The translations under genes and the position numbers were made by a program. From contig QPMI01000515.1 of the NCBI GenBank assembly GCA_004431415.1, positions 1 to 64,000 of the forward strand: a stretch of 64,000 nucleotides of DNA. The letters are read 5' to 3'. The first letter of the stretch is position 1. Each line of letters begins with the position of its first letter. The notes under the pieces were generated by a model. The model was given only the letters and a program-made list of their open reading frames with translations. It made no database searches and was not told the origin of the DNA. Positions 1,024-33,329 of the stretch are shown here, one piece after another. The DNA comes from Cyanophora paradoxa CCMP329 (lineage: Eukaryota > Plantae > Glaucophyta).

Positions 1024-4000
1024 GCGGCGCCCGCGCTTGCACGCCCTCTAGGCTTCGATTTTAGGATCCTGAGAATTCAGCCCCGTGCCGCCCGCTCGGA
1101 AACCCCGTCGAAAGCCGCCCGCCCGCTTGCCGCGGCGCGATCCATTGCATGATCACACCACCGCTCGCTAGATGGAGGGGATGGATGGACTGCCCGGGCC
1201 GTCCTCTAGATCCCCACGGCGCCTGTCTCGCCCGGGGCGCGCGCCGCGACGGCCGCCTTCATACCGATCGTCGCCCCGAGGGCGGGCTGCGCGGAGCGTG
1301 GGTCGTTGCGGGGCAGGCGGGGCGGAGAGACTCGCGCGGACCTTGATCGCGGCGGGCACGGATGAACGGCCGCGCCGGGAGGGCCGCGACGCGGGCGGGC
1401 TGCGTCTTCCCGGGCCTCTACGCATCCGGAATAGGCTCTAGCTCGCGTGCGCGCCGCGCAAGCCTGCCGGAGACGAGTTGGTGGGGCGGGCGTGTGAGGA
1501 ACGGGCGGGGCCCCGCGCACCGTCTGCAAAGGCGCGGCCGGGGTGGACCGGCGGTCGACGAGGGGATGCGCAGGGGGTTCTAGGATGCCCTGGAGCGCAA
1601 CGGGATCGTCAGGGCGACCGCCGCGGGCTCGCGCAGCCGAGGGAGACGCGAACCAAAGGTGGACCCGCGGGCCGCCGCGCGTCCTCCGCACTCCTGATCG
1701 TCCGAGGAAAGAATCTTTCTCGCTCCGAAGAGGCGCGGGGCCGAGGGAGGGGCTAGCTACAGCGCCGCACCGCACCGCGAGCGGCCGCTCGCCGCGCCGC
1801 GTCGGGGCGAGCGGCCGGGGCGATCAGCACCCGTGGAGGCACGAAAGAAGCCGCAGGAAGCGTGCAGGGACGGCCGGGCGGGCGACGGGCGCGATGCGAG
1901 GAGGCGCGGGGCCGGGCTCGCCGGATTCGTCGGCTTCGTCGCCAGCTAGAGGATTGAGAGGCTCCATGTCCTCGGAGCGCGGTCGGCGAGGTCGGGAGCG
2001 GCTCGCCTGCGATCCGCCGGCTCGGATTGCGGCCCGAGGCGATGGGAGGGACTCTACGCACCCTCAAACTCCCTCTGACAATGCCTGAACGCTGCTAGCC
2101 GGCGAGCGTGCGACCTTGAAAGGCCTCGTTTGCCGACGTTTGGCGCACCGGGGGTACCACGTATTCCATTTCTCACCGGCAGGACCCGCCGCGGCGGCGC
2201 GCCTACCGATTCGGCCGTCGGCATGCTCTCGCACGCGATCCACCGCACGCTTCGCCGCTAGCTAGCCGCCTGCGATCGCAGGTTTGCGCCCGCCACACCA
2301 TCCCGTTCGATCGCTGCCGCAATCGACCGTGCGATCCACGGTCGCTTGGATCGGTGCGGACCTGCTCGGGGACACGGATTCCCCGCCGCCTCGCGCTTGT
2401 ATTGCCCCACGTGCACGCAGCCTCGCGGCGGTTCACGACGAGCCGACGGGGCGGAGCGCCAGGCGTACGATTGGACATCGTCTAGACGGCGGACGCGGCA
2501 CGGTGCGAGGCGCCGCCTCGTGGGCGCTCGCTCGACGCCTTCCTGACTCGCGGCCGCGCTCGCACCGGCCCGGCCGGCGCGTGCGCAGATCGCCCGCCGT
2601 CGCGCCGGACAGCAAAGGCCGCCCGCGCGCCGCCGAACCGCCCCGCCGCTCCCTCGTCCCAGGCGCTGCAAGGAGCCCTCGCCCGGCCCGCCCCGCCCGC
2701 GCCCCTCTGCCCGCTGGAAGGTGCGAACGCTTACTCTTTCGCATTCGACGCGACCTGAAGGGGCCGGTTTCCTGCACGCGCAGGTCTGCCGCCGCGGCCC
2801 GCTTCCGCGCTTCGCGCGGGCCGGCGGGGGAGGACGACAAACGACGGGCGGATCGCACGGGCGGGGGCGCGTCGATGGGCACCGGCGGCGGGGCGCGGGG
2901 TGGGCGGGCGCGGGCGTCCGTCGGCCTCCATCTGCCCACCAGCGCCGTCGTCGTCGGCGCGGCGCGGACCGGTTCGAGCTCTTCTATGCGTCCCGCGCCG
3001 TCCTCCTCACGCCCTCGCCTCAGGTTCTTGGCGGGCGGCGCGGCGGCGGCCGGTGGCGCTCCCGCGCCCTCCCGGCGGGTGCCGCCGGCGGGGCTCGCGG
3101 GCGGCCGCCCGAGCCGCTGCATGACCTCCTCGGCAGACGTCGTCACGTCGATCGCCCCGTTCGTCGCGCGGTACTCGACGGGCACCGCCGCGCGCGGGTA
3201 GGTGTAATCGTCCGGCCCGCCCTCGTTCGAGGCGTCCAGAGCGTGCCGAACCTGCGCAGAACGACGAGGCGGTTCTCCTGCTGGCCGAGGCGAGCCCCAC
3301 CGTCGCCGTGAGCCTCGCAAGACCGTCGTGGGTAAGAGGTCGCCCCGCGAGTCACCATCGCCGCCACGACGCTCCGCGCAGGCATGGGGTCGGCGTGATC
3401 AGGCGTATGTGCCAGGGGGCCGGCGGAGGCGCCATCTCCTCCCGCTCGCGCGGGCGCCGGCGGCCGGCGGCCGCGCGGGGGCGACCCCGCTTCGGAGCCT
3501 CGTCCAACCCTCGCCCTCGTCTTCCGCCGGCGGGTCCGGACCGCCACGTCCGCCCGCGCGGCCGCGCTCGCGGCGCGGGGCCTTGGCGTCGGATCCTCCT
3601 CCTCCTCTCCTCCTCATCCTCCTCGTCGTCGTGTCGCTCCGACCGCGCGCCTTGGGCGTGCGCGGCGAGCAACGATGGCGGGAGATGCCTCTGGGGTCCC
3701 GAAGATGCGTCGGCACTCGGGACACCAGCGCCCCTCGGCGCGGCGAGCTCGCGCTCGACGCGCAGGCCCTCCTTCAGCTCTCCGAGCTCCCGCCGTCCTC
3801 GCTCTCCGAGCTCCCGCCTCCTCCCGTCGTCCGAGGCGGCGGCGGCGGCGGCGCCGGCGGCGGCGCCGGGCTCGCCTTCCCCTCCTCCCCGTCCCGTCGA
3901 CGAAGACGCCCCTCCGGCCTCGAGCGCGGCAACCGTCGGCTTCTCGAGTTCGCGGCGGCGCGCTCGAGCCAGGCCAGCGCCACGCACGCCTCTTGCCGGT

Positions 4001-4036
4001 GAGCGCGCGGGGCGGGGTGCGGGCGGGGGCGGCGCA

Positions 4037-7000
4037 CCTCGCGCTGCGTCTTATTGCATCGTAGTGCATCGTCGCCGTCCGCGGGTGTGCTGGGGAGGCG
4101 CGCCGTCCCTCGATGATGCTGGTGCAGACGTCGCCCTCGATCCGCCCCTGGGCCGCTGATCGCGCACCAGGTCGTCACGACGGCGCGCATCGTCCGCGGC
4201 GGCACGGCGACGCCCGTCCAGCGGCTCATGGCCTGCGCCGGGTGAGCCCGCCCCGCGCCGGCGGCGCGCTCGCCTCACCTGTTTCGCGAACAGGGTCCAG
4301 GACCCGCGGCGAAACGCATCGCCGCGGAGGTGAAGAGATGTACCCCTGGTCCTTGGCGCCTCGCTCAACAGGTGACGCCGGAAGCTCTCACGTACTCTGT
4401 TAGCGGCTCCTGACGCGCCGCGGCAGCGGTCGACGGAGCGCGCGCGGGGCGGGCGGGCGCGCACCTGGAGCTGCTGGGCGACGGGACGATCACGGCGCCG
4501 TGCCGCTTCTGCGGATGGGGCGTCGGCGGCGCGCGTCCCGGCGCGGCGCGGCGGGAGGCCCCGCACCGCCGTCTTGTGGGTGAGCGCGCCTCCTCGGAGC
4601 CGTCCTGGATCCGCATGCTCAGGATCGACATGTTCCACCGACCGTTGTCTTGCGCAGCGTCTCGCCGATCTTCAGGTGCTGGAGGAGGCCGGCGCGCCGG
4701 GCTGATCGAAAGGAACCAAGCAAGAGAGATTCCCTCAGGTACTTCGCCTTTTGCCGCGGCCGCTCCTCGGAGCGAAACGCGGCGTAGGCCTCGACGCGCC
4801 CGCGAACGACGTCCTCGAAGCGGACCCACGTTTTCTCGTTCTCCACTTCCGTTCCGCCTTGGACTCGGCGACGAGCTGGTTCTGAGGGTGCGCGCGGCGC
4901 GTCGGCGCGCCCCGGGGGCGGCGGCGCGGGCGGGAGGGAAGCTCACCCGCAGGTTGCGCAGGGCCTGACCGTGCGGGCCCTCGCTCCCCGCCGGCGCGCC
5001 GCCCGTCCCGCGACAAAGGCGGCGAGGTTGATGAGGGTGGAGGCGTAGCTCACGAGCGTCCCGGGCAGCGTGCCCGCTCCTCGCGCAGGAACCTGCCGCG
5101 GCGTTTGGTAAACGCCCCCCGCACCCCCCCTCCACCGCGCCCGCCGCCCCGCCTCACTTGAAGAAACGAAGCACGATTTCGACCGCGTCGACCCGGCTCA
5201 TCAGATCGAGGGTGAGCTCGCCTCCAGCCCTCGCGCATGCGGACGTAGCCAGCAGCCGCTGAATGATGCCAGGTCGTTCGCCAGGCTCGAGTTTTCGACG
5301 GCGTTGCCCTTGCGCGAGGCGTTCAACGGTGCCTGTCTCCACTCCCGATAGGCCGCGAGCTGCAGTTTCAGGGCCCGACTAAACGCGCCCTCGTGCAGGG
5401 CGTACGGCTGCCGCGCCTCGCCGGCCGGGGGCGAGCCGTCGGGCGACGGCGAGCGCGACGGGCGCCGGCGGCGAGCCGACGGCGGGCGAGGCGGCGCGGT
5501 CGATGGGCGTGAGCGGGCGCGCGTCGCCGTCGCTGCCGCCCTCGTCGCCCTCGGCCTCGCTCTCGGACGACGACGAGCTCGCGGACGAGGACGAGGGGTC
5601 CCCCGGCGCCGCCGGGCCCGCGGCCTCGATGGCGCCCGCCCCCGGCGGCGCGCGGCTCGATGCGGGGAGCGCGACGGCCCAGCTGTCGACGTCCTCGTCG
5701 ATCTCGAACAGGCGGAGATCGCTGGTGTCGACGATGGCGCTCTCCAGCAAGGACCGGTACGCCTCTCGCCTGCGGGGGGCGGGGTTCGGCGTGGTGGGGG
5801 CGGGGCGGGGGCGGGAGGGCCGAATAGAGGCACCTCCGTGCGATGAAGCGCGTGTTTTTAGCGCGAGCTCGCTCGTAAACGCCTCACCAGACTTTAGGAA
5901 TCCGATGGAGCCGTCGTTCAGGTACTCTTCCCACGAGTACTGCGTCGCCGCCTCCAGCGCGAGGCTCTCGGCGAACCACAGCGCCCATATCCCTGGTGCG
6001 CGCGGTTCGCGGCGCGTGCGCGCGCGCGGGCGAGGGCGCCGGCCTTACCGCAGGAGTGACCGTCGTTTGCAGGCGATCGGGAAGCTCCGTGACCCACGTA
6101 AACGACGGCAAGGCCTTGCTCGCCGCCCGCCTCAACCTCGGATCCGGCGGCGCGCCGAGCGAGTCAAGTACCTGCACCGCCTGCGGGGACGCGGTGCGCG
6201 CGGTCGTGGGAGGGGCGGGGGATGGGCGGCGCGTATACCGGCTCGCGCCGTCGAGGGCGAGCGTGACCAGTGGCCGCGCGTCGTCCACGTCCTCTGCGCG
6301 CCGCCCTGCCCCCCGCCGGTGCAGCCAAAGCACAGAACGAGCCCGCCGTTTGCCGCGTGCCATAGCGCCCGCTTTCGGCGCCTCTCGTCGCTCATCTTGG
6401 CGTATCGCCGCAGGATCGAGACGATGGTGTCGAGGCTGGCGGGTACAGGGCCTTGGCGCTCGCGTTGGGCTTCATGCGGTGCAGCAGGAGGGTCATCACG
6501 TTTGCGAGCATCGTATCCTACGCGCGCCCGGGGTGAGTGCGGCGCCGGAGGGGGGGGGGGGGGGGGGCGGGAGGGGGTACCGTTAGCCACTCCCTCTTGG
6601 AGAAGATCGCCAGGCGCCGCGCCGGGCGGGGCTCGGGCACCATCAAATCGATCTCCGCAGGATCGTGGCCTCGGATGGCGAGCGAGGCCCTCTTGAACGC
6701 GAGGCCGAACGCGGGATCCCGGCCCGGAAGCTTGGCCAGGAGCTGCTCCGCCCCCTCGAGGCTCAGGAAGGACCACTTGCGAGCCGACCCCAGGTTCTCC
6801 TGCCCCGCCTCGCCGGAGAGCGCGAGGAAGCTGACCAGCGTTCTCGCCAGGGTGGCAAAGTGGGGGCGCCCGAGCGTCTTCGTCGTCGCGAGCCAGCGGT
6901 GCGGGCTGTTCTCTCCGAGGCTCGGGTGGCTCCTCGCGATCTCACGCCGCACGCTGGCCGTGTCCTTTGGGCCGCGTAGATGCACTGGCGATGCTGGCGA

Positions 7001-7527
7001 GCGGGATGTACCAGGGCGAGACCTCCGGAACTTCGAGCCGGCGGACCTTCAGAGCGAAGAACCTCGCCCGTCTACGTGAGCACCTTGACGTCGCACCGCT
7101 CGAACGTCTCCTGCGTCCGCCGCTCGATCGCGAGGTGAGGTCCCGTAGCAGTGCCGCAGCCGCGGGCTGTCCGACCCCTCCCAGCAGATCGACGCCAGCT
7201 CCTCGACGTGCTGGAGGGAGAGGACGCGCGGCGGGCTCTCGGTCGGGTGCAGCTGGCCCCGCGGCACGATCGCGAGCATCTCCCAGAGGAGGATGAGGCT
7301 CTCCGTCTGCGGGCCGGCGATCGGCCTCGACGCGAGGCCGTGCGGTCCGGTGAGCTGCCTCGCCGCCTCTTCCGCCGCCTCGGCGGGTCCGTTGCCGAAT
7401 ATGCGCTGAACCTGGGGCAGGGCGGCCGCGGGCCCGGCGTCGGTGCGGAACACGTGGAGGCGCTCGGGCCCGGCGTAGGCGTCGAACGAGACACCTCCCA
7501 CGAGTCGCGCGCAAACGCGAGCGACAT
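4037..7527 (-). CDS. Intron-containing tyrosine recombinase-like gene (several single-base frameshifts in this assembly; further 3' exons may extend to ~1,440)
   Basis: Stitched exons give a core-binding-like region (QLAAYREWRQAPLNASRKGNAV...LTLDL...FLREER...GTLVSYASTLINL...QALRNLRNQ), then YR catalytic motifs in the right order: LLL.FLSISP.R(AG)LLQHLKIGETL (Arg ~4693), THKTA (Lys ~4574), GSWTLFAKQ, WTGVAVPPRTMR (xxxR ~4186), QHT...TMHYD (His, Tyr ~4061). The start at ATG 7527 is tentative. Confidence 0.62.
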
Positions 7528-7745: not shown

Positions 7746-7992
7746 TCGAGACGATAGCTTACACGCAGCTGCGGTAGTTTGCTTGGCCAGCAATCCGCAC
7801 ACAAGCTCGGTTCTCGGGTACCTCTATCGGCGGGCGTGGTCGCGCCCGCTTCGGGAACTTGCACTTTCCGATCGATTCCGACACCGCCGGGCGTGTCCAA
7901 AGTCTCCGGTAAGCATTTCGACCCTTTCGGACGTCGTCTGCGGCTAACGGTCGCCGCGGCGGCCGCCCGTTGCAGGCGTCGCCTCGGCGGGC

Positions 7993-10293
7993 ATGGCGGG
8001 AGGCTCGCTGAAGAGAGCGCGCGATCGAGAAGGTGATCGCAGCGACCTCGGCGATGTCAGCGGGCCCGCGGCCGCGCCCGAGGCGCCCGTTCCCATCTGG
8101 ATGGCGTCGGCGGCGTCCCGCGCGTCGAGAAAGGCGCGCGCCGCGCAGCGCGGACGCATGATGAACATCTCGCTCGCCGCGGGTGCGGGGGGAGGGTCGG
8201 CCCCGGCGGAGCGCGGCGGCGGCGGCGGCGGCCTCGTCTGGATGAACCGGAAGAGGGAGCTCCAGGCGTCCGGCCTGGCGCTCGGCGGCGCCGCCGCGTC
8301 AAAGACGCCCGCGCCCGGCGGGCCCGTGTACTCGAAGAGTCTGCTCCCCGCACTTTCCCCTCCGCCCCTCCCAACGGGGATCCCCCGCAGGCCCCTACAA
8401 ACGCGCCGAGCTGGTCGCGACGAGACGATACGGCTATCGATCCTTCGGCCCCGTCCGGTGGCGGGACCAGGTCCTGTACGTGCGTCCCCGGGGTCGCGGG
8501 GGGCTCCCGCCGCGCGCCCCGACGGCCGCCCCCCGCAGCTCCCTTTCGGCGTCGTCCCCGAGGGCATGACGGGGCCGCCGGAACGGATGGAGGAGCACTT
8601 TGGCTCGGAGCTGGGGCTGAGCCCACCGCCCGTCGACCTGCTCGCCCTGCGCGCGATCGAGGGGGCCTTTCTCGGGCGTCCGCACGGCCCGCCGCACGCC
8701 TCGGCGCTGGCGTCGTGGGCCGTATCTCCCGAGCGGCGCGTCGCGCTGCCCTGCAATCTCCTCGGGGGCGGCGTCGACTCGCGCTTCATCCGGCAGCAGC
8801 GGGCCGAGGTACGGCGCCCCCTCCCCCCGCGCCCCGCCCGCGCCTCACGCGCCCGCAGGGCAAGTTTGCCGCCTACGTCGCGCCGCTCCCGCCGGGCTGC
8901 TCCAAGGAGGACGAGGCGCGGCACGACTACGTCTTGGACCGCGGGGCGCAGACGTGCATCTCCCTGGGCGGCGCCCTCGCCGCCGTCCACCTCCCCGGCC
9001 TCTTCCGCGAGGGCGCCGGGATCGAGCGGGTCGCCGCCGCCGTCGCCTGCGCCTCCACGGCCTTTACGTTTTCCATCCGCCGCAGCATCATGTACAACGA
9101 AGCCCGGGTGCGGCCCGGCCCGCCCCGCCCCGCCCCCCGCGCGCGCCCCGGGCTCTGACGGGGCCCGCCGCGCAGGACCAGAAGCTGCTGGACGAGGCGC
9201 GCGAGGCGGCCGAGGCGGCGCTGCGGACGGGGCGGCTCGACGTGATGCGGGAGATTCTCGCCAAGCGGCCGAAGAGGAGGCCTCGGGCCGCCGCGACCGC
9301 GCGGCCGCGCCGGGGCAAGAAGAAGAAGAAGAAGGAGCACGAGCGCGGCCCGAGGATCGTCACCGGCGTCCAGCGGGGCCAGGGCGCGACCGTCCCGATC
9401 CCGGTCCGCGGCCCCCGCCCCCACCCCCCCGCCCGAACGCGCGCGGGACGCGGGGCGAGCCGACCCGCCCTTTCCCAGATCTCCCTGAACCCGCAGTACG
9501 GCGCGGACACGAACGCGAACCGGCGGCTGCACCTCCTCAACGGCCACCTCGTCGGCGTGCTCGAGTACCTGTTCCCGGCCCTCTGCGCCATCGACGTCAA
9601 GGCCGGTTGCGACATGGCGGAGATCGCCCTGAAGGTCCTCGAACGGCACCCGTACAGCTACGGTCCGCGAGCGCGTGTGCGCCGGCCCCCGGGCCCGCTC
9701 GTGCCCGACGCGCGGGTCGCGGGCGCGCAGGAACCTGGACGATGCACTGGATGAACCCGCCGGAAACGTGAGCTGCCGTTTACCCCTCGCTCCCTTTCCC
9801 GCCCTCGTTGATGCCGACGGCCCTCTAGGATATCAAAGGGCCACCGGGACCGCAGCGACGCGCAGGAAGCCTACGCCGCCCTCGTCTACTTTCACCCCGA
9901 GGGCAAGCGGGACCGGCCCCTGCACCGGCTCCGCTTTCCGGCCCTCGGCATCTCGCTCGACCTAAGGCACGGCGACGTCGTCTTTATTCGAGTGCGCGCC
10001 CTCTATCCTATCCCCCCCCCCTCCATGCCTGCCGATCGACGGCGCCCCCGTCGACGCCGCGGCCGCCAGGGGCACATGCTGGAGCACGAGGTGGTGGCGA
10101 GCGAGGGCACGGATGCGAGGTTCGCGGGCGTCCCCTCCGCCGGCGCCGGCCCCGGCCCGATTCCGCGCCCCCCTCGCGCAGGTACTGCATCGTCTTCACG
10201 CTGGGAAAGAACCTGAAAGTAGACGCCGATTCCGGGTCGAGCAGCGACTCTTCTACGTCCTCAGATAGCGACTCTTCGAGCTCGGAAGACTAG
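7993..10293 (+). CDS. TET/JBP-family 2OG-Fe(II) dioxygenase, 8 exons, ~612 aa
   Basis: Exons 7993-8808, 8859-9107, 9176-9403, 9479-9662, 9731-9767, 9829-9991, 10070-10119 and 10182-10293 join through GT-AG introns with no frameshift. The C-terminal domain GTWTMHWMN..ISKGHRDRSD...LRFPALGISLDLRHGDVVFIRGHMLEHEV...RYCIVF contains HxD, the distal His and the 2OG-binding Arg, with JBP/TET-like spacing. A poly-Lys NLS-like tract is present. Confidence 0.78.
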
Positions 10294-10574
10294 CGATAAC
10301 GTAGGGCGAGCCGCCGTGATGGGAGGGGGGGCCGGGGGGCCGGGATCGAATCGTGATGGGAGCGGGCGGGCGGCCGGCGGCCGACGCGCGTGAGCTCGGG
10401 CGCGCGTTGAGGTTATGCGGCGCGCGCGGGGCGGTCCGGCGCCGCCGGGAATGGAGGGGGCCGGGGGGCGGGGGCCGGGGGCGGGGGCCGGGGCCGAACG
10501 TTTAGAAGAGGGTCCTGGCTAGGAACTAAAAATCAGGTGGGTGTGGTACGGGCCTGTGCGTGCATTTGCTGCAT

Positions 10575-11699
10575 CTAGTTCCGTGCGAGCGGCCCCGGGA
10601 TATCCCATTTTAATTGCCCCTGGACTGGTATGGAGTATGTTTCATGATTTACTTTCAATAATCTTGAAAGGGACATGATTGTAATATAATGACCATTCCC
10701 TTCATCATCAAATATCAGCATGAGATTAACCTTATGCTTTCTGCCTGGGTTACTGGATTGATGCAGGGGATAAATAACCTCTCCATCGATTCCAAATATA
10801 TTAATGCTAATGCCTGCATTTTGAGCCTCGAATTTATCAATAATCTCAGCATCACAGGCAACAGGGAATGGGATGTTATCGAAATTCAGAGCCAGCGGAT
10901 TATAAGCGATTGCTGAGTATTTCCATTTGCGATATTGTGAAAGCTCATTCCTCTTATGGGAGTTTATCGCTTTTCTGTGAATATATGCCAAAATTGCATT
11001 TTCGAAGCAGGAATCATCTATATTTCGAATATTCACTGTGGCTCTCTTCCTAGCAATCCACTCTGGGGTTTGTAGAAAGCATCCACCAGTTGGAGCATAA
11101 CTCATAATAGCCACTCTGAGTATTTCGATTCTTTCCAAGCGATAGCTATCAACCACATTCATCTGCTCTTGACACATTTGGGCTGCTTTATTCAGCTCAG
11201 TTCGAATATTTCTCGACCTGGTTAATACAAAATAATCACTGTAAATGTATTTCGATATCCAAACCTGTGGATTGCTCACTTTTACGAACTTGCAGATAAA
11301 AGACAAGCGAACCTTGATTGCCCTGAATTGATCTAAACCCTGCTTTAATCGATTAGGAAGGGATGTAGCAATTCTGTCCAGGAATTCAATCACATCTACA
11401 ACAACTTCCCTTCTGGCTCTGTAAGTGAGCCAGCGATATAATTCATTCATGGCTGTTCCATCTTCTGCATCTGGTTCTATTTGCCTAAGCCTATCCAATT
11501 CATCCAAGGTTTCAATTTTATCATATAGGTTATTTGCTTTTCTGGTTAATCTGCTTAAAGTGGGTCTGCCCTTTGCAATTAAATCTATTTCCCGGTCATA
11601 TTCAGCCTCTGTAATTTCATGGGCTGCATAAAGTGTTCCCAGCAATCCCATGAGTTCCCATTTCTTCTCCCTTATGAGTTTGTTGGTAATTCGGGGCAT
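10575..11699 (-). pseudogene. N-terminal (vOTU-like/terminal protein) region of a Polinton-type protein-primed PolB, truncated at ~10,632
   Basis: Motifs YAPTGGCFLQTPEWI..KRATVNIRNIDDSCF, LNFDNIPFP, IDKFEAQN..ISINIF, IYPL, VNLMLI..GHYITIMSLSRLL. No exonuclease or polymerase motifs follow, and the last residues derive from the GC-richer flank. Confidence 0.75.
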
Positions 11700-11759
11700 T
11701 ATTCCTAACTTGTTCCTATTCTAAGGGGATATTTTATTTTAGGATGTTCTAAACGCAAT

Positions 11760-12110
11760 TTAAAATGTTTTAATGGATCCACTGGCTTCCTCTGAATGGA
11801 ATCGCAAAAACCTATTAATCCTAAATCGGGATTTCGGTTTTTGTAAATTGACTATCCAAGGTTCAAAGAGATACATGTAATATGCTTCTCTGTTCATTAG
11901 GTCTTCATGCCCACCCTTCTTACTTGAATACAGGACTGAGAACTTCACATCAGAAGCCTTGCATAGGTCTGCTGTAGATGGCATTTGACCTGATTTGTGT
12001 TGTCTCCATCTTTTTTGAAGTGGCTGTGAGGTTCTTCCTATGTAGACTTTGTTCATTTCCTGACTCTCAATCATATAGATCGATCCAGAATCATGATCTG
12101 TTCCAGCCAT
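11760..12110 (-). CDS. GIY-YIG endonuclease
   Basis: SIYMIES...VYIGRT...KRWRQH...NREAYY...N motif set. Confidence 0.85.
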   Translation of the reverse strand: MAGTDHDSGSIYMIESQEMNKVYIGRTSQPLQKRWRQHKSGQMPSTADLCKASDVKFSVLYSSKKGGHEDLMNREAYYMYLFEPWIVNLQKPKSRFRINRFLRFHSEEASGSIKTF

Positions 12111-12160
12111 TTCTTACTAGTTACATATAAATATATTTTTCTATCTCTTAAATCATTTTT

Positions 12161-12345
12161 TGGTTGACTTAGTGGGTGGAGTTGAGGCACTTTTTATTTC
12201 TTTTTAGGGCAGAGTCCTCTTTTAGAATCTGTGAAAAAATGAGTCAACTCCCCCCACTTAGTCAACCTAATCGATAAATAAACCATAAATAAAAGACTGT
12301 TTGGGTCTTTTATGATAAATTTGAGTCAACTGTGAGTCCACTTTT
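12161..12345 (-). repeat. Inverted copy of the terminal iteron-like unit (candidate replication origin)
   Basis: GGTTGACTTAGTGGGTGGAGTTGA...TCAACTCCCCCCACTTAGTCAACC inverted repeat; the whole unit matches 32141-32330 in reverse orientation. Confidence 0.75.
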
Positions 12346-12353
12346 GAGTAAAC

Positions 12354-14947
12354 CTAAACTTCAACATCAGAGTCATAATCTGATGCATCAGGATCAGCAG
12401 CAGGTAGTTCTTGTTTCATCCTTGGATTAGCTTCTTCCTCAATAGTCTCATCATCTACAAGCTTCATCTTTCTGAATTCCTCAAATACTTGTGGGAATAG
12501 GAAATGATAGTATTGTTTGCCATTTGTAGTTTTCACTTGGATATATGTAACACTTCTCATTTCAGTATAATATCGGCGACTATTATAATCGTTTTTATAT
12601 TTATTGCTGGTAATAAACTCCTGGAACCACTTCCAGGTTTCCACAAGGCTACCAGACTTGCATTTATTCTCGGAAATTAAGCCTCGATCCACAAGCCACT
12701 TAGTGAACATAAGAATGATTGGAGCGCACACCTGTTGGGCTAAATAGTATTTATTTGTAAGGGGTCTATCAGCAATCCAGTTCACATCCTCACATTCAAC
12801 TTTGGTTCTCAAATAGTGGGCAATGTTTCGAATATTGCAGTGATCATTAAGCCATTTTACAAGTGGAAGGAAGTATGACCTATCCTTTGCGAATTTCTTA
12901 CTAACTTCAACAACCACAAATCGCCTATCTCCAGCTTCAATTTTCACTGGAATGTTGTTATTGCTGGTGAATATAATCCTGGCAAAGTTGCTTTTTGTGT
13001 ATGAATCTATCCCTTTGTGTTCAATTACAATCTTATCAGAAGTTATGAGATCTTTGAGCATATCATTATTTTCGAATGTGTCCTTGCCTGAGGCTTCATT
13101 CACAACAATCAAGATCTTATCCTCTCTATTGTGGGCAAATCGACCAAACAGATCCTCTTTTGGCTTTCCAGTTGCATAACTTAGGGCATCTCCAAGTATC
13201 TTCTTTTGGAAAGTATCAACCAACACATTTTTACCAGTTCCCTGCTCACCAATGAAGATTAAGGATACTCCATTGAGTTCCCCAGGCTTTTGCAGCATGT
13301 GGGCAAACCATTTCAACAGATATTCATAGGTATTTTGATCCTCACCAGACATTAAGAACAAGTGATCAAGGAAAGGCTTAATCATCTCAGCAGTTACATC
13401 CTCTGGAGCATTTTCGAATTGCTGATGGTCGACCTTCATTCCTGGATAGAGATTAAATACAGACTTGCATTTTGCACTGAGAGTAGCAGGAGGTGGGAGG
13501 AAATCCATGTAAGTTGATCTTGTGGCTGTTGGATCCACAATCCATTTCCTAAATGATTGCTCCCATTTCTCTTTCTCATTATCTGTCCCCTCATTCACAA
13601 TCACCTTATGCATCAAGTGGGGGAAATGCTTTGTAGAGAGCTTCCCAATATCTTTGGGCATCCAGCAAAGTAGTTGTTCATCCCAGAGCATCACACAACC
13701 AACATTTTCAACATGATGCATTCGAGCATTGAAATACCTCTTATGCACATTGTAATGTTCAGCCAAAGGAGGGATACTTGCAGTCTTGTAATCGATTTCA
13801 TCTGTGTCCTCTGGTAGGAATGCATACTTTTTGGGGAAGAGTTCCTTGAAAAGCTCATTGTTATCTTTGCTCAACCAATAAACCAAGGATTTGAAGGTCA
13901 ACACTTTGCCAGGCTCAGCCTTCTTCTTGCTTCTGCGAAGCTGTGTAAACTTCTCCTGGCATTCATCATAATCATACTTGTCACTCTGTTCTGAGAATTG
14001 GTGGAAGAGTTCAGCTTGCATTTTAGGGGTGAACTTGTTGTCTTCCCCAACATTGATGATGACCAGTCCTACATCAATCCAAGTTTTATACTCATTAGCT
14101 CTCTCACCATTCAGACCCATTATAACACTTTGTAGCAGTTCGAAAGTAACAGGATTTTCGGGTTCAGTGTCTTTTTCAGCTTCTACCTTCTCAGTCTTCA
14201 CTTTATCACTTTTTGGCTCCTTTTTAACTGGTTTTGGCTCAGGGCTATAATTTGCGAATGCAGAAATATTCGATTCATCCACAAGTTTAGTAGAAGCTGA
14301 GAAGAAAGATACAAAGAAGTCCTCATTTCGCATTAACACTTTGTCACAGTCAACGAATTTCTTAAAGCAAACGTTTTTATCAACATCTTTCTTTGATTTA
14401 TTTTGAGCATCCAGAGTCTCACCTTTGCAGCAATTGAGGCAGATAAGGTTCTGTGTGGAGCTGTAAACTCCACTGTCATAATCCTCATTTTTCACCAATC
14501 CCATAGCTTTGAAAAGCTTGGGGATATCTTCATGTTTGCATGCAAGCGATTTAATGATAAAGTGGGCTGAGATCTTGAACTTGGTGACATCCTCCTTGAT
14601 CAAATAAACCCTTCTATGGCGAACTGCAACAGCAATATCGTTAATCGAAGTGGTCCCAGATCGCTTCCATAGCTTATCTCTCATCTCTCTTACAACAGTT
14701 TCAGCCTCAGCATAGTTTTCAGCAATGTTCTCCTTCAAATCAGCGAATTTATCCAGGTCCAGGTAAACTCTGGTGACTTGTTCAGGCTGAATGCATTCAG
14801 CCAGGTCTTAACCTTGCTATTATCAATGGCTTCAAGGGCATCTTCAGCAGAATCAAATACATGGGTGACCTTGTTGCGATCACCAATGAGAGTACTAAGG
14901 AATGTAGCATTTTCAACAGGGGTGGCGAATTTCTCGATTTTGTTCAT
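12354..14947 (-). CDS. AEP primase-PriCT2-D5-like SF3 helicase fusion (1-nt frameshift at ~14,808)
   Basis: The frame upstream of 14738 reads ECIQPEQVTRVYLDLD (AEP DxD). Downstream: KISAH, YDSGVYS, PriCT-2 (YKTWIDVG...FSEQSDKYD), Walker A GEQGTGKN, Walker B VVNE, motif C IFTSNN and DRRF. ORF 14735..14947 supplies the N-terminus. Confidence 0.9.
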
Positions 14948-15164
14948 TTTCGATTTTGGGGACTTCTACCTTTAACGAAGAAAATAATTTCGGAAGGAGG
15001 AATTGTCTTTTATATATATCCTATTATTTGCCAAGTCCTTAAGTAGTTTTGGGTCGGGATACTGTCTCGATATATAGGTACAGTTTTAAAAAAGAGGGAA
15101 GAAAGCTGTCATTTTTTTGCCTCCGATCAAATCGATTTCTACAAAATTTGTTTCGATCGAGAAT

Positions 15165-15490
15165 TTATTCTTCGATATATTTCCGAGGTCTTCCAACCGG
15201 TTTATGCTCTTTGGGTGTCTTGGGTAGTTCGTCTTTTTTCTTGTGGTAGTATTCCAGCGCTTTCGCCTTTTTCTGTTCGCGATATTCTTCATTTTCCCTG
15301 TATTTCCTCTGGTGTCTGAGGGCAATCTTTTTGAGTTCTTCTGGTGTGTGAACTGTAGCGGCTCCTTGGGATAATCGTTCCTCCTTCTTTTATGATAGGC
15401 TTCGCGTTTTCTTTGGGCATCTTGCTCCCTTTTCAGTCTCAGCTTCTCTGCTTTTTCATCATCTGTGAGTATCTTGCGGATATTCGGCAT
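15165..15490 (-). CDS. Small basic AT-hook protein (1-nt frameshift in an A-run at ~15,390)
   Basis: The corrected frame reads ...RHQRKYRENEEYREQKKAKALEYYHKKK...PVGRPRKYIEE*. Confidence 0.6.
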
Positions 15491-15642
15491 TTCTCTTTAA
15501 TAGTAGATACGAAAATAATTTTTCCTCAATACAACCTATCTACTTTTTCTTTAAGTCATTTTTTGTTGCGAACACCAGTTCCTGTCTGTAAACTTTAATA
15601 GCTGCCTCAGTAGCATACTGAGACCGCTTTTTCTCAAGTATC

Positions 15643-15888
15643 TTATAGACCTGTGGGTCCATTGCTACTATCAGTAGGCAAATAATATTTAATCGGTCTC
15701 CCTCTGGGTCTCTGCTCCTCTTTTTGGGCTTTTCTGCGATAATAGGATGCCAGGGCTTGTTGTTTCTTATACTCTCTATATGCTGGGTCCTCTCTATATC
15801 GTTTCTGCTTTGCTAGAATGTGTCTAATAGCACCCTCAGTTAAAGGCTCATCACTAGTAAACTCGATCAAACTAATTGTATCCTCCAT
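15643..15888 (-). CDS. Small basic AT-hook-like protein, similar to the neighbouring gene
   Basis: ATG at 15888; KQKRYREDPAYREYKKQQALASYYRRK...RPRGRPIKY. Confidence 0.6.
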   Translation of the reverse strand: MEDTISLIEFTSDEPLTEGAIRHILAKQKRYREDPAYREYKKQQALASYYRRKAQKEEQRPRGRPIKYYLPTDSSNGPTGL

Positions 15889-16144
15889 TAATATTTGCTG
15901 AGAAAACGTTTTCGCCTGGTAAAGAACTTCTCCTTGGATACTCCTGTTGCTCATATGTATACTCTGTGGGGTCTGCTGGCATTGACTCCACTGAAACTGT
16001 TGATCTCCTTCTCTCTCTTGCCTCAGATACATTATCCTCAGTATCTGACATCTCAAACTCTATTGTTGTGTCACAGCATCCACTGTGGCAATTGCTCACC
16101 ACATGCAGACTGAGCATCTCAATAAACTTTCGTATTATATCCAT
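15872..16144 (-). CDS. Hypothetical viral protein with an SNCHSGCC motif
   Basis: ATG-initiated ORF that tiles with its neighbours, with an AT-rich leader. Confidence 0.5.
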   Translation of the reverse strand: MDIIRKFIEMLSLHVVSNCHSGCCDTTIEFEMSDTEDNVSEARERRRSTVSVESMPADPTEYTYEQQEYPRRSSLPGENVFSANINGGYN

Positions 16145-16166
16145 GTCTCTAATAAAACAGAGAAAA

Positions 16167-16901
16167 TTAAAGCCAAACTCGTCTTTTATATACTGTTGGG
16201 GCTACTCCCTTTTCGACTTCAGCTTTGGTGGCACCAGGTTCAATAGTTCCCTTCTGGGTCTTTGTTTTCATTTCATCTACTGCCTGCTCATCAATTTGGT
16301 TCTCTTTCTTAGCAATAAACTGTTTATCTGGGACACCAGTAATGCCCATTTTATAAACTTCCTTTCGAAGCATCTCCTTTAGCTTGGATCTCTCTTTCTT
16401 CTCAGTAACATACTGCTCCAAGGCACTTGATTTGGCTTCCAGATCTTTGAGTTTAGCAGTCATCTCATCCCATTGAGCCTTGGGAATCCGATGAATATTT
16501 TGAGTGGGAGCAGTCTTGTATGTGACTTCACCAGCCATAGACTGAATTACCTTGTCTGATTCCTTACTAAGACCCTCACCTTTGCGAGCCAGTGAAAGAT
16601 CTTGCAAGCCTAAACCTTTGTCATCAGCAGCCCCAATAATTCGCCTGGCACCCTCAGCAACAGCTTTCATTTTTGAGGCTTCTGGTGAGATGTTGAGTTG
16701 GTCACTGGTTGAAGCCTGTGGGGCTTTGTCATCAACTGATTCCTCATAGGCAGCATTGAGGGGGTCTTCTTCTTGCTGTGAGGGCTTCACCTCATTCATA
16801 CCATTGAATTTCATTGGTTCAGTATTAATGGATCCATTGTTTCCACCACCTGAATAGCCAACAGCCCCAGCTGGAATCCCTATCTTTCGTTTGGGAGGCA
16901 T
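16167..16901 (-). CDS. Hypothetical viral protein (NLS-like MPPKRK start, coiled-coil), possible core protein
   Basis: 244-aa ORF directly downstream of the ATPase, with virus-like codon usage. Confidence 0.65.
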   Translation of the reverse strand: MPPKRKIGIPAGAVGYSGGGNNGSINTEPMKFNGMNEVKPSQQEEDPLNAAYEESVDDKAPQASTSDQLNISPEASKMKAVAEGARRIIGAADDKGLGLQDLSLARKGEGLSKESDKVIQSMAGEVTYKTAPTQNIHRIPKAQWDEMTAKLKDLEAKSSALEQYVTEKKERSKLKEMLRKEVYKMGITGVPDKQFIAKKENQIDEQAVDEMKTKTQKGTIEPGATKAEVEKGVAPTVYKRRVWL

Positions 16902-16929
16902 TGTATCTTTATTAGAATGAGAGATAATT

Positions 16930-17724
16930 TTATAAACCGCGTTTATATCGCATCAATTTATTGCTATGGACTTGGCTTTTCACTTCTTTAGGGGCTTCCT
17001 CTTTCTCTGGTGGTTTCAGTTCATCTTCTTTCTTCTTGGGCTTCCTGTGGAAGCGAGGAAAATCGAAATCTCCAACTAAATCGGCTTTATCAACATAGTA
17101 GCCCACATTATACTTGAAAGATGTATAAACAAGGAATTGATATGAGTGGACATACTCTTCAAACAGTTGATAGAAATCTTCTTTGCGAGGAAAAGTCGAA
17201 AACTCCTCTGCAAATGCTTCCAGCTCTTTTTGATTGCTTGCACAAACCATAATTACTATATCACTATTGCAGCGAATAACAATTGCGACCTTTCTTAATT
17301 TTTGGGAAATAGTTATAATTGATATATTGACATGTCTGCCACGAACATAAAGCATTCCCACTGTTTTATCTCGACTGAGATCCAGCTGGTCATTTTCTAT
17401 CATATCCTCTAAAATCACCAGCATATGGTTAAGTTCTTCTCCTTTCTCCCTTTTTGCCTCTCTTTCTTTTATAATTTTCGACATGTATTGGGGATCCCAT
17501 GCACCCAGTTGAACAGTAGCAGCTTTGTCCCAAAAATGTGAAAATGAGGTAGCGGATATAATAAGTGTTGTATCAATCTTTTTGGCATCATGCAGCTGTT
17601 TCAAATAATATTTTACAGCTTCTGTTTTTCCGCATCCACTTTTTCCGAGTATGAGTAGTCTGAAAGGGGGTTCTATCATTTCACCAGCCACAAATTCATC
17701 CAGATCAGAACTTGGTATTGGCAT
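16930..17724 (-). CDS. A32-like (FtsK/HerA superfamily) DNA packaging ATPase
   Basis: Walker A GKSGCGKT, Walker B LVILED, RGRHVNISIITISQ, IRCN. Confidence 0.93.
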   Translation of the reverse strand: MPIPSSDLDEFVAGEMIEPPFRLLILGKSGCGKTEAVKYYLKQLHDAKKIDTTLIISATSFSHFWDKAATVQLGAWDPQYMSKIIKEREAKREKGEELNHMLVILEDMIENDQLDLSRDKTVGMLYVRGRHVNISIITISQKLRKVAIVIRCNSDIVIMVCASNQKELEAFAEEFSTFPRKEDFYQLFEEYVHSYQFLVYTSFKYNVGYYVDKADLVGDFDFPRFHRKPKKKEDELKPPEKEEAPKEVKSQVHSNKLMRYKRGL

Positions 17725-17780
17725 TGTGTATCTTTCTATAAAGAAACAGATAAAAATAATGCAAGGTGACTGAATATGGT

Positions 17781-18712
17781 TTACAGGTTAGATAGGAATC
17801 GTTTAATGCAACCCTCAATATCAGTTTCGGTGTATGGGATTCTTAGGAGTTTGATATTATTAGCTTCACAGTACCGATTTTTAATTCCATCACGAATTTG
17901 GGTATCTTCAAAGGCCTTCTGACCTCCAAACTGTTCCACAGGTTTGAAATGTTGTATACCATCATATTCAATTGCAATTTTGAGAGATGGAATATAAATA
18001 TCGAATGGGAGAACTCTTTTATGCTTGCAATCAGGAAATCTGTGGATATTGAGAAGTCTAAACCAATTTCTTTTAGGGCTGCTTGAACTTTCGTCTCACC
18101 AATAGACGATCTACATGACAGACAGCCATACCCATTGAGAAAATCACTTGGTGTCTTTTTGAATTCAAGATCACACTTTTTACAGATAATGGTAACTTTT
18201 GTTCTTGCATTTACATACTCAACTTTAGATAAATCGTAGTTATCTCCATAGAGTTTCAAAGCTCTCTCTGTGAATTTCTCAATCCCCATTTGCAACTTAT
18301 CTTTGATGCGATCCATTTTACATTTTGCATGCCCATCACCATGCATGTGTTTGTGTGGCTTTTGATTGAAATACTCTTGACATTTCTTACAGAATATTTT
18401 AATAGGGTCTTCTCCCTTAATATAAACAGATTCTGAATAGTCATAAAGATCTCCATGCTTTTCCGTCGCTCTTTTGACAAACTGTTCAGTGGTTAATCTA
18501 TTTGACATTCCCTTTTTAATATTCCCACATGAGGGACAACCACATTTCTGATTAATATGACTATGAGCAGCTTGCCAAAACTCAGTCTTGCAGGTGTTGC
18601 ATATAATATTAATCTTCTTCATGGTCCCTTCATAGATAACTTTAGAGTAATCATAATTATAGCCATGCACTTCGACAGCTTTTTCGATAAAGGACTTAGT
18701 AGTATAAGACAT
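17781..18712 (-). CDS. Zn-ribbon repeat (DUF723-like) plus C-terminal Vsr/PD-(D/E)xK-like endonuclease (1-nt frameshift at ~18,050)
   Basis: Three repeats F..KA...HG..YDYS...Y......I.C..C. The shifted frame continues LPFDIYIPSLKIAIEYDGIQHF...RDGIKNRYC..NNIKLLRIPY to the stop at 17781. Confidence 0.8.
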
Positions 18713-18785
18713 TTTACTTTGTAAAAGATTTCAAAAATAAATAATCATTTTTTCTTTAAATGCCTTACGAGAAATGGTAAGATTA

Positions 18786-20156
18786 CTACAAATTTATACG
18801 ACGTAATCCATCTTTGTCTACAATAATAAAGCTATGCATGAGAGCGCGAACATTAACATCAATTGTCTTATCTGAAGGCATGTAGAGGGTGAGGAATGAA
18901 GATGAGGAATTTGTCAGGTCAACAAATCCACTTTGAGCAATATTTCGAATTGCCTTTTCTCCATCAAGGCAGAATGGGAGTCCTGAAAGGACATAGCGAT
19001 CAGCAACCTTATCCATGTTAGAGCATTTGAAGGCATCAGCAATTAGCTCAGCACCTTTGAGTAGGGAAATTGGCTCAGTGGCAAAAAGTCGCTGTCCATT
19101 TATTTCAGTTGTGAATGTGATGTCTTTGGAGTTGGCATAGGTCTTAAGAACACTGTGGGAGCCATTGGATTTGTCAACAGTTTCATGATCACGAACTGAA
19201 ACAAGCAGAGCATATACAAGACCTGAGATTTGAGAGAGGTTAATTCGATTGGGTTGGGCATTGCCCTTGGCAGGGAAAGCACTAGCATCTACAAATCCAA
19301 TATCAAGGGAGGGAATAGCCATGCCAGTTGTCTTAACCTTTTCAATGACAGTAGCGAAAAGCTCATCAGAAACATTAATAGCATGCATGTAAAGGCGAGG
19401 AGAAGTAATAGAAATAACAGGAGTTGTTGCACCAAGACTGAAAGTTGTGATATTTTGACCAACATGGGCAAGTGTGGCATTAGCAGTATCACCAAGACCA
19501 TCATCTTCTGTCTTATCAGCAACTGTCCCACCAACAACAGGGAGAGAGCGACCACCATAGGAAGTTTCAACATAACCCTTTCCAGCATCCTTAAACCAAA
19601 CAGTAACAACCATTTCACCAGATAAAGCACCAAGGGGAAGGTAGTGATTTAGCCAAGGCACAGGGATTTCAACAAAGAATGAGCCACCAAGGCGGTTGGT
19701 TCCATGAGCAGGGATGCCATGAACCATGCCCATTGATCGCTTCTTTTTAGCTAGTTGATCCTCCGAATAATAGACCAGGGGGAAATGAGCAAGGAAATCA
19801 GATGGAATATGGTAGGTGTAAGATCCATAGGTAATTTCAAGTCGCTGAACTAAAGCACCAACTGGGCGAGTGTATCCATTGCGAACTAGGTCAGTATCAC
19901 CAGCAAACGTGATGGCTGGAAGGTCGAAAGCAAGTTCGAGTTTTCCACAGAAATTGTAGCGAGGTAGCTTGAAGGAAATGCGATTTCCAACATTATTCTC
20001 AAAAGTATTGCTGGGATTCACAACAACTAGAACTGGCTTAGACTTGGATTCGAGACCAAGCATAAGGGAGTTATCCAGGAAAAAGGCTTTCGCCTCTTCT
20101 GGGGTTGTTAGGGCTTCTTTCAGCGAAAGTCTTTGAAGAGTGGAAGTGATATCCAT
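18786..20156 (-). CDS. Double jelly-roll major capsid protein (~456 aa)
   Basis: Size, beta-strand pattern (ISFKLP, LVQRLEITYG, FFVEIPVPW..YLPLGAL..MVVTVWF) and position between penton and ATPase; ATG at 20156. Confidence 0.85.
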   Translation of the reverse strand: MDITSTLQRLSLKEALTTPEEAKAFFLDNSLMLGLESKSKPVLVVVNPSNTFENNVGNRISFKLPRYNFCGKLELAFDLPAITFAGDTDLVRNGYTRPVGALVQRLEITYGSYTYHIPSDFLAHFPLVYYSEDQLAKKKRSMGMVHGIPAHGTNRLGGSFFVEIPVPWLNHYLPLGALSGEMVVTVWFKDAGKGYVETSYGGRSLPVVGGTVADKTEDDGLGDTANATLAHVGQNITTFSLGATTPVISITSPRLYMHAINVSDELFATVIEKVKTTGMAIPSLDIGFVDASAFPAKGNAQPNRINLSQISGLVYALLVSVRDHETVDKSNGSHSVLKTYANSKDITFTTEINGQRLFATEPISLLKGAELIADAFKCSNMDKVADRYVLSGLPFCLDGEKAIRNIAQSGFVDLTNSSSSFLTLYMPSDKTIDVNVRALMHSFIIVDKDGLRRINL

Positions 20157-20209
20157 TATATTCTCTTTTATTATACTGCAACATAAAAAATCTACCAATG
20201 ATCCTTAAT

Positions 20210-21220
20210 TTATGCGAAGTTTGTAATAACTGGATAGGAAGGGTGAAGCTGTGACATTCGCATCTTGAAGTATTCATAAACTGGGTCCCCAGCTGGCTCA
20301 TCACCATAGCGAATTTCAAAGGTAAGATGAACAGGTTGACCCTCAAAATCAATTGGTTCATTAATAGCATTTACAATATCAACCGAGAAAGTGGATAATC
20401 CAACCTTTTTATTATAGTATTTGTAAAGTGGGTGAGCTTCTGTTGAATTGTAAACAACATGCTCACCATAGTCTTTATCAGGGACCACTATTTTGTGAAA
20501 GTAACCAGTCAGAAGACCATCCCCACATTGCACCAGATCACCCAGCTCCTTTACTCTTACAAACAAAACACTGTCCCTGGTCTTCTCAGGCTCAAAAGAA
20601 GATATAATGCCATTCACGCGACCACCAGTAAAGATTCCATCAGTGAGAGCATCATAGACCTGTGATTGGATTGGGGAGTTACCATATCTTCCAGGATCAA
20701 GACCCAGCAGTCTAGCTGAACTCAACAGCTTTTGGATTGTTTGTTGGCTTGGGTTCACAGCTACTGAGAAAGCCAAGTAAAATGGTACTGCTGAGTGGAA
20801 TATAATTCGTTTCAGTGATTCATCCCATTTGCAGCGAATGGATGGTTGGGGATTTCTGCCTTCGAATTTAGAGTTAATTACATTCACCAGTTGCTGGTGG
20901 CTTTGGATGGGGGTGTTTCGACTTATAATGAATTGTTTCCATTGTTCATAGTCAGCAGCTGGGCGAACTGTTGGAATTCCTGAGCTTCCAGCTCCAGGAG
21001 TTTGTTCAGAATAATAAATGCTAAATGCATTGTCAACTGTCACATCTCCTGCTTTGGTTTCACCACTCACCATAGGGATACTGTTATAAAATTCGGCTGA
21101 GACCAGTCTCACAGCCCTCACATTCTCATAACTACTGGGGAGTCTAGCCACAAAGCTTGATGTGGGACCATCACCAGAGATTGTATTAAATGAGCTAACC
21201 TCGATGTAATCCACAGGCAT
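20210..21220 (-). CDS. Minor capsid (penton) protein 1
   Basis: N-terminal YIEVSS...SFVARLP..YENVRAVRLVSAEFYNS and C-terminal LSTFSVDIVN....IDFEG..VHLTFEI, a single-jelly-roll penton signature. Confidence 0.8.
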   Translation of the reverse strand: MPVDYIEVSSFNTISGDGPTSSFVARLPSSYENVRAVRLVSAEFYNSIPMVSGETKAGDVTVDNAFSIYYSEQTPGAGSSGIPTVRPAADYEQWKQFIISRNTPIQSHQQLVNVINSKFEGRNPQPSIRCKWDESLKRIIFHSAVPFYLAFSVAVNPSQQTIQKLLSSARLLGLDPGRYGNSPIQSQVYDALTDGIFTGGRVNGIISSFEPEKTRDSVLFVRVKELGDLVQCGDGLLTGYFHKIVVPDKDYGEHVVYNSTEAHPLYKYYNKKVGLSTFSVDIVNAINEPIDFEGQPVHLTFEIRYGDEPAGDPVYEYFKMRMSQLHPSYPVITNFA

Positions 21221-21249
21221 TCTTCTTTTATCTATATTTATATATTAAA

Positions 21250-23728: not shown

Positions 23729-23771
23729 CTTTTACTTATCAGGAATTTTATAAATCCATATAGTAAAAGCC

Positions 23772-27018: not shown

Positions 27019-27037
27019 CTATTTCGTAATTATAAAG

Positions 27038-33319: not shown

Positions 33320-33329
33320 TCGTAGAATC

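What the first reader, a model, noticed from the sequence alone, without database searches (positions are those of the whole stretch)
10560..10700. GC-rich YR/TET block cuts into the virus polymerase gene: element nested in an endogenous virus?
Seen: the pPolB-like ORF keeps family motifs up to LSRLLKVNHETY, then runs into unrelated sequence (minus strand TACTCCATACCAGTCCAGGGGCAATTAAAATGGGATATCCC) and stops. No left TIR or hairpin matching the right end is present. Inference: the YR/TET element inserted at ~10,632-10,638, so the rest of pPolB, any integrase and the left terminus should lie beyond the left edge of the window. That would make it a possible hyperparasite of PLVs.
Basis: partly seen in the sequence, partly recalled or inferred. 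Interest (0 to 1): 0.75.

Follow-up and report, generated by a model that had tools for sequence, protein, structure and literature searches.

The report
Recombinase element joined to broken provirus
In what is likely an alga's genome, a single-copy element with a predicted recombinase gene is joined to the middle of an integrated virus's polymerase gene, but four other sequencing runs show that element attached to non-viral DNA, so the join is likely a recent one-off recombination (or an assembly error) rather than a parasite specialised on viruses.

Summary
The minus-strand ORF at 11,699 is the N-terminal third of a Polinton-type pPolB (42% identical to a 1,083-aa full-length relative). It is cut at 10,635, just before the usual CxxC finger, and no left terminus is present. 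Sister virus copies do not stop there.

In 4 of 4 runs laid, the GC-rich block is one locus whose end continues at least 790 nt into non-viral single-copy DNA. No contig bridges the window's join, and depth makes it a minor allele at most.

The break still looks like an element end. The block encodes a Ulp1-like protease–tyrosine-recombinase fusion and ends in TATGG, the CryptonS terminus, and the viral side starts with the same GTATG 7 nt further on.

Best reading (0.5): a recent, imprecise Crypton-like recombination, either insertion or translocation, private to this window's source DNA. Rivals: chimeric read or misjoin (0.3), break repair (0.12). Specialised hyperparasitism is unsupported, and transposons inside PLVs are already described. 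The scan noted Ulp1–YR fusions and hairpin-ended PLVs on other pieces of this genome, but not this junction.

The parts
10635..11699 (-). N-terminal 355 codons of a Polinton-type pPolB (terminal-protein and vOTU-like region; candidate catalytic Cys231 and His337 kept), cut before the CxxC finger; the frame reads on through non-viral DNA to a stop at 10575-10577
   Evidence: domain order from bioRxiv 2024.03.18.585575 passages
10628..10641 (+). Junction: GTATGGA|GTATGTT, two 7-nt words sharing GTATG; 2-nt overlap GT at 10635-10636 between the element side and the virus side
   Evidence: sequence; contig ends in 4 of 4 runs; chance 0.23-2.1% depending on tolerance
10629..10633 (+). TATGG, the commonest CryptonS terminal repeat; the only + strand TATGG in 1-10636
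   Evidence: PMC3212892 text and supplement 1
10496..10636 (.). Last 141 nt of the GC block: 54% GC, host-like composition; candidate subterminal region, or host flank
   Evidence: Markov fit and GC
7992..10293 (+). Spliced gene with TET/JBP-like 2OG-Fe(II) dioxygenase motifs (HRD at 9842, LRFP.LG..L.L..GDV, EHEV at 10082); start codon and exons read by eye
   Evidence: motif recalled; no Pfam or PDB hit
3075..7527 (-). Spliced Ulp1-like protease plus tyrosine recombinase gene (GHW 6275, LDS 6168, HKT 4578, RTMR 4196, MHYD 4069); the window version is frameshifted by letters missing relative to short-read contigs; ends approximate
   Evidence: near-identical gene model P0152 maps to 6511->3075; ESM Atlas 0.96-0.97, one cluster PF00589 15%; gaps; motif places
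10635..33319 (.). Left-truncated, multi-copy Polinton-like virus: GIY-YIG, PriCT-2/DUF5906 primase-helicase, A32 ATPase, capsid-like ORFs, patatin lipase, C1q fibres, AdoMetDC; no integrase found
   Evidence: depth 8-40 times the single-copy contig
33245..33319 (.). 75-nt terminal palindrome, the intact right end of the PLV
33320..33460 (-). Host-type DNA whose minus-strand frame (..WAPSNVRPSRFYD) runs into the PLV end: likely an interrupted host exon. It is not the continuation of the GC block seen in the runs
   Evidence: exon status inferred

Best explanation
A single-copy GC-rich element encoding a predicted protease–tyrosine-recombinase fusion and a likely TET/JBP dioxygenase is joined, at what is likely its own right end, to the middle of the polymerase gene of a resident Polinton-like virus, likely by a recent and imprecise recombination by its own recombinase that is confined to the DNA this window came from. 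Shown: the cut in pPolB, the 2-nt overlap, the single-copy state and the non-viral flank in four runs. Inferred: that TATGG marks the element end, that the YR paired the element's GTATG core with the GTATG in pPolB, and that joining kept both cores in tandem instead of giving one crossover core. The outcome is either a true insertion with the left part of the PLV beyond the window (about 60%) or a Crypton-type translocation or inversion (about 40%). Either way this virus copy loses its polymerase.
For: The partner of the break encodes Ulp1-like and YR motifs, a pairing known from CryptonF-2_PS and CryptonS. TATGG, the terminus of most CryptonS families, lies 3 nt from the break and nowhere else on that strand in 10.6 kb. 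Chance in host-type DNA is 0.46% for TATGG on either strand and 1.6% for any listed Crypton end. The viral side opens with the same GTATG at a 7-nt offset; chance is 0.23% at offsets 6-8 and 2.1% with loose tolerance. An active Chlamydomonas Crypton recombines a 5-nt end with a near-identical 5-nt target and causes translocations and inversions in culture (PMC9977147 passages). The PLV right end sits cleanly in other host DNA, so two resident loci are joined here.
Against: No contig bridges the join in 4 of 4 runs. The single-copy contig carrying the non-viral continuation is as deep as or deeper than the block (1.06-1.31 times the deepest block contig). A 50% junction allele would need a 1.6-2.3-fold GC bias. 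The join is not a clean crossover: it keeps both cores, and the sister copies appear to lack TGG at 10631-10633 (inferred from how the aligner clips ends). Both chance figures were computed after seeing the junction, and a 4-mer version of the repeat arises in 9.3% of random joins. The YR gives no Crypton-family Pfam hit, and its nearest Atlas clusters are unnamed, mostly mollusc or bacterial, so the CryptonS motif may not apply. Composition turns host-like 140 nt before the break. The element's left end is not in the window.
Confidence: 0.5

Rival explanations
1. Assembly artefact: a chimeric long read or a misjoin links a unique locus to a random point inside a 20-40-copy viral repeat.
For: 0 of 4 runs bridge the join and 4 of 4 show one identical alternative flank. 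The window lacks letters relative to short-read contigs over much of 1-7690 (for example 53 in 3.2 kb), typical of a poorly polished long-read consensus. A second version of the same gene exists with other indels (P0152). One partner is a high-copy repeat.
Against: There is no long homology for an overlap-based misjoin, only 2 nt. A random chimera has no reason to fall 350 nt past the last gene of a recombinase locus, beside TATGG and a matching 5-mer. Contig builders can drop a thin link into a deep repeat (recalled behaviour, not tested), so the missing bridge is weak evidence alone.
Confidence: 0.3
2. A real but recombinase-independent rearrangement: a deletion or translocation repaired by end joining between host DNA just beyond the element and the PLV polymerase gene.
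For: A 2-nt microhomology and a short flanking direct repeat fit end joining (general knowledge). The last 141 nt fit the host model best (log-likelihood -192, against -208 for the block and -221 for the PLV).
Against: It does not explain TATGG at the break or the recombinase partner. It also has to be private to the source DNA.
Confidence: 0.12
3. One reading: a YR/TET family that preferentially inserts into PLVs (hyperparasite), with the nested copy as a stable part of the genome.
For: YR retrotransposons do prefer endogenous virophages in Cafeteria (PMC8547959 passages). TATGG/CCATA is about three times denser in the PLV than in the right flank (54 in 22.7 kb against 24 in 30.7 kb).
Against: One locus, with a non-viral flank, in 4 of 4 runs. 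Only one contig per run lies on 10520-10627 at 90% likeness. In the duplicated 8680-9900 segment the window's allele is no deeper than the other allele in any of the 4 runs, so there is no second full copy unless that other allele is itself multi-copy.
Confidence: 0.05
4. The ORF is a natural stand-alone TP-vOTU gene or a family-wide module boundary, and the virus ends or swaps cassettes here.
For: Both deep viral contig variants begin 3-4 letters left of 10635 in all four runs, and a third variant leaves at 10662. Earlier notes describe cassette swaps inside pPolB in this genome (unchecked).
Against: Alignments stop at 10635, so sister copies do not have A at 10634 and the next codon cannot be a stop. 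92 of 107 relatives go on into a CxxC finger. There is no terminal palindrome here. Contigs of this family are only 40-90 nt long, so their ends are dense.
Confidence: 0.03

Closest known systems
CryptonS and CryptonF-2_PS elements of oomycetes (Kojima & Jurka 2011, PMC3212892; passages and supplement 1 read)
   Same: YR plus C48/Ulp1 peptidase; no TIR; short terminal motif, mostly TATGG in CryptonS.
   Different: Here the element is over 10.6 kb against 3-6 kb, intron-rich, with protease and YR apparently fused and a TET/JBP-like cargo gene. No Crypton-family Pfam hit, only one end is visible, and the join keeps two cores.
CryptonF-1_cRei of Chlamydomonas reinhardtii (PMC9977147; passages read)
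   Same: Short end motif recombined with a near-identical target; new insertions, inversions and translocations arise in laboratory lines.
   Different: There the products are clean single-core joins (CACCG to CAYCG) seen in many lines. Here there is one imprecise, unconfirmed join.
Transposons nested in endogenous virophages and PLVs: Ngaro in Cafeteria EMALEs (PMC8547959), MULE/LINE in Halocafeteria (bioRxiv 10.64898/2026.07.28.741278), RT elements in cryptophyte PLVs (PMC12220804); passages read
   Same: GC-rich mobile DNA interrupting an AT-rich endogenous virus, once in pPolB in Cafeteria.
   Different: Those are multi-copy, have both ends visible, and are retrotransposons or DDE elements. 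This one is a single-locus YR DNA element with no RT seen in the window, and nesting is not shown.
Polinton-type pPolB with TP-vOTU-EXO-PALM order (bioRxiv 10.1101/2024.03.18.585575; passages read) in palindrome-ended PLVs
   Same: N-terminal region with conserved Cys and His; A32 ATPase; terminal palindrome.
   Different: Cut after the vOTU-like region; left terminus and any integrase are missing.

Membership tests
Crypton (YR DNA transposon) | Encodes a tyrosine recombinase | tested here: met
   Motifs in the window and in P0152; ESM Atlas 0.96-0.97 with one cluster PF00589 in 15% of members. Pfam, PDB and a single-sequence fold gave nothing.
Crypton (YR DNA transposon) | No reverse transcriptase, no TIRs or long direct repeats | tested here: inconclusive
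   None in 1-10636 (111 frames scanned; repeats), but the left part of the element is outside the window.
Crypton (YR DNA transposon) | Short direct repeat at both termini | not testable with these tools
   TATGG at 10629 only; no second + strand copy in the window's block; no genome held.
CryptonS | YR groups with oomycete and diatom CryptonS YRs | not tested
   No CryptonS sequence could be fetched; the supplement search gave none.
CryptonS | Target shares the terminal motif, so the join has one core | tested here: not met
   The join keeps both cores; sister PLV copies differ from the window at 10634 and likely at 10631-10633.
Mobile multi-copy element | Several copies with different flanks | tested here: not met
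   One locus and one flank in 4 of 4 runs; the window's join is the only second flank.
TET/JBP dioxygenase | HxD...H...R double-stranded beta-helix core | tested here: inconclusive
   HRD, EHEV and the LxFP..G..V.L..GDV-like motif are seen (pattern recalled). No Pfam, PDB or phage hit.
Polinton-type pPolB | TP-vOTU region followed by finger, exonuclease and palm | tested here: met
   Met for the part present: 42% to P0001; 8 of the 26 long hits scanned match DNA_pol_B_2. The downstream domains are absent from the window.
Polinton-like virus | A32 packaging ATPase | tested here: met
   Pox_A32 E=1.5e-13.
Polinton-like virus | Double jelly-roll major capsid protein | tested here: inconclusive
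   The 456-aa candidate has no Pfam, PDB or IMG/VR hit; single-sequence model pLDDT 34.
Polinton-like virus | TIRs at both ends and an integrase | tested here: not met
   Right palindrome only; no rve or YR among the 21 viral ORFs scanned, as expected for a left-truncated copy.

The most novel reading that the evidence does not exclude
An active Crypton-like DNA transposon that carries its own SUMO-type protease and a TET/JBP base-modifying enzyme has just hopped, by way of a GTATG core, into an endogenous Polinton-like virus. It can ride in or disable virus copies whose DNA level differs up to five-fold between samples. I did not find a YR element with TET/JBP cargo in print.
Probability: 0.15. 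Interest if true: 0.65.

Novelty: new variant of a known kind. Interest (0 to 1): 0.36.

Why it matters
If real, the join is a snapshot of a Crypton-like recombinase acting in a glaucophyte culture. It would give the end motif and target rule for a little-known Ulp1–YR element with likely DNA-modifying cargo, and show one way endogenous viruses lose their polymerase. If it is an artefact, it is a warning that 'nested element' calls at high-copy PLVs in long-read assemblies need read support. Nesting of transposons in PLVs is already described, so the hyperparasite idea itself is not new.

Tried and rejected
PLV inserted into the GC block with an empty site: rejected, because the runs' continuation is not in the window and no target duplication links 10636 with 33320.

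Stand-alone OTU gene with a stop after HETY: rejected.

Searches that gave nothing:
- Word-based searches for close pPolB relatives, longer or near length.
- IMG/VR scans with the pPolB part, the capsid candidate, P0152 and the loose end. P0001 found one distant locus, L001 at 30% identity, which was not annotated further.
- The 22 metagenome matches to a 17-nt junction motif and 1 viral match to a 20-nt motif, which do not extend and are chance.
- Exact look-up of 10 viral ORFs: 0 of 10 in the collection.
- Single-sequence folds of P0152 and the capsid candidate were unusable (pLDDT 39 and 34), so no fold search was run.
- ESM Atlas on one YR exon: no usable hit. tblastn of P0152 against plasmids: no match.
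- A search on ploidy gave nothing useful.

Low-copy viral variants were rejected as a depth baseline because they scale differently between runs. A 4-bp inverted repeat around the 7-nt core in the resident allele was judged too likely by chance (estimated, not computed).

Full report
Layout. The window has three parts: a 73% GC block (1-10636), a 39% GC, CpG-poor block (10637-33319) and host-type DNA of 59% GC. The middle block encodes a GIY-YIG nuclease, a PriCT-2/DUF5906 primase-helicase, an A32 ATPase, a patatin, C1q fibres and an AdoMet decarboxylase (21 ORFs scanned). It ends in a 75-nt palindrome. It is a Polinton-like virus by gene content; the capsid candidate could not be confirmed. 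A gene model labelled Cyanophora paradoxa (P0152) is the same gene as the minus-strand gene of the GC block but with other indels, so the host is likely this glaucophyte. No whole genome is held.

The observation. The ORF starting at 11699 (-) matches a 1,083-aa pPolB from its first residue to SRLL at 42%. Of 150 listed hits, 143 reach that motif; 92 of the 107 with a tail of 25 or more residues go on into CxxC, while 23 of 143 end within 10 residues. I scanned 26 of the 150 hits, chosen for length, against Pfam; 8 match DNA_pol_B_2. The window's frame breaks after HETY, before the finger, so about 700 residues are missing. The part kept is the TP-vOTU region described in bioRxiv 2024.03.18.585575 (passages), with Cys231 and His337. 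No left terminus is present.

The GC block. By eye and with P0152 it holds a spliced minus-strand gene with Ulp1-like motifs (HW, DS, QTDGHSCG in P0152) followed by YR motifs (HKT, RTMR, MHYD), and a divergent plus-strand gene with TET/JBP-like motifs (motif patterns recalled). The YR label has Atlas support (0.96-0.97; one cluster with Phage_integrase in 15% of members). Neither gene has a Pfam or PDB hit.

Read evidence. Fifteen DNA runs hold half or more of the words of 8000-13500; I laid four of them. The GC block lies at about 125-180 in X1 and the virus at thousands. At the junction, each of the 4 runs has one contig matching up to 10636 that then runs on for 790-799 nt with the same non-viral letters. 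The depth over 10520-10627 equals that one contig, so nothing bridges the window's join. The continuation is not in the window. Two deep viral variants begin at 10635 with 3-4 other letters before it. The overlap is therefore GT, and the sister base at 10634 is not A, which excludes a stop codon after Tyr. Contigs show presence, not absence, and a thin link into a deep repeat may be pruned (recalled), so depth matters more. The continuation contig is 1.06-1.31 times the deepest block contig; a 25% junction allele would need a GC-bias boost of 1.35-1.66 and a 50% allele 1.6-2.3. In the duplicated 8680-9900 segment the window's allele is never deeper than the other (103:126, 77:93, 13:14, 140:162), which argues for one locus independently of GC bias, unless the other allele is multi-copy. 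The join is thus absent or minor in these samples.

Junction anatomy. There, Cryptons with a C48 peptidase occur in oomycetes and most CryptonS families end in TATGG (passages and supplement 1). The window has TATGG at 10629-10633, the only one on that strand in the block. A random break in host-type DNA has TATGG on either strand in the preceding 10 nt in 0.46% of places, or any listed Crypton end in 1.6%. The viral side starts GTATG, the same five letters as 7 nt upstream. This happens in 0.23% of random joins at offsets 6-8, 2.1% with loose tolerance, and 9.3% for 4-mers. All of these figures are after the fact. In Chlamydomonas an active Crypton recombines CACCG with CAYCG and causes inversions and translocations in laboratory lines (PMC9977147 passages). 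Against a clean Crypton product: the join keeps both cores, the sister copies seem to lack TGG at the matching place (inferred from the aligner's clipping), the YR is not shown to be CryptonS-like, and the last 141 nt fit host composition best. At its right end the virus abuts a likely host exon with no duplication shared with 10636. The join therefore links two resident loci and is not a virus landing in the GC block.

Mechanism. Most likely (0.5) the element's recombinase paired its end core with the look-alike in pPolB, and the ends were joined with both cores kept, in the cells sequenced for this window. The steps from TATGG as true end onward are inferred. Whether the element then sits inside the virus or the event is a translocation cannot be told from one junction. 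A chimeric read or misjoin remains likely (0.3), then plain end joining (0.12). A PLV-specialised family (0.05) and a natural gene end (0.03) are contradicted by the reads.

Comparison and novelty. Transposons inside endogenous virophages and PLVs are described for Cafeteria, Halocafeteria and cryptophytes (passages), and terminal palindromes for Halocafeteria viruses. Tandem and mosaic polisuviruses are described in bioRxiv 10.64898/2026.10.13.758929 (passages). TET/JBP genes on transposons are known from fungal KDZ elements (recalled; only the reference line was seen). A YR element with TET/JBP cargo did not come up in two searches; the library lacks most subscription journals, and supplements of the preprints could not be seen. 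The scan's notes hold no earlier record of this junction. Verdict: a real truncation in the assembly, a probably private or artefactual join, and an element that is a new variant of Crypton-like DNA; interest 0.36.

Noticed in passing
window 10637-20000: PLV depth relative to the single-copy contig differs between runs: 8, 21, 23 and 40 times. This may reflect different copy numbers, extrachromosomal replication or library bias.
   Followed up: partly
window 17843-18730: The 289-aa zinc-finger/endonuclease-like ORF between the ATPase and the capsid candidate is optional: deep joints 17777->18786 skip it in all four runs, and its own depth is far lower.
   Followed up: no
window ~8680-9900: The middle of the TET/JBP-like gene appears to have a second, about 99% identical locus: contigs break near 8709 (3 of 4 runs) and restart at 9871 (4 of 4), with paired alleles at 8919-9498.
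   Followed up: partly
window 10662: A third, deep PLV variant shares the vOTU-like end but leaves the window sequence at 10662 and continues in an open frame for the letters shown: a sister family or mosaic point.
   Followed up: partly
   Followed up: no
window 36919-38700 and 62030-64000: A long inverted pair of host-type segments, 78-93% alike, about 24-27 kb apart: likely an inverted gene duplication.
   Followed up: no
window 142-1023 (+): A further spliced ORF end at the left edge of the GC block, with no Pfam hit. In two runs contigs go on about 3.3 kb left of position 1 at single-copy depth.
   Followed up: no
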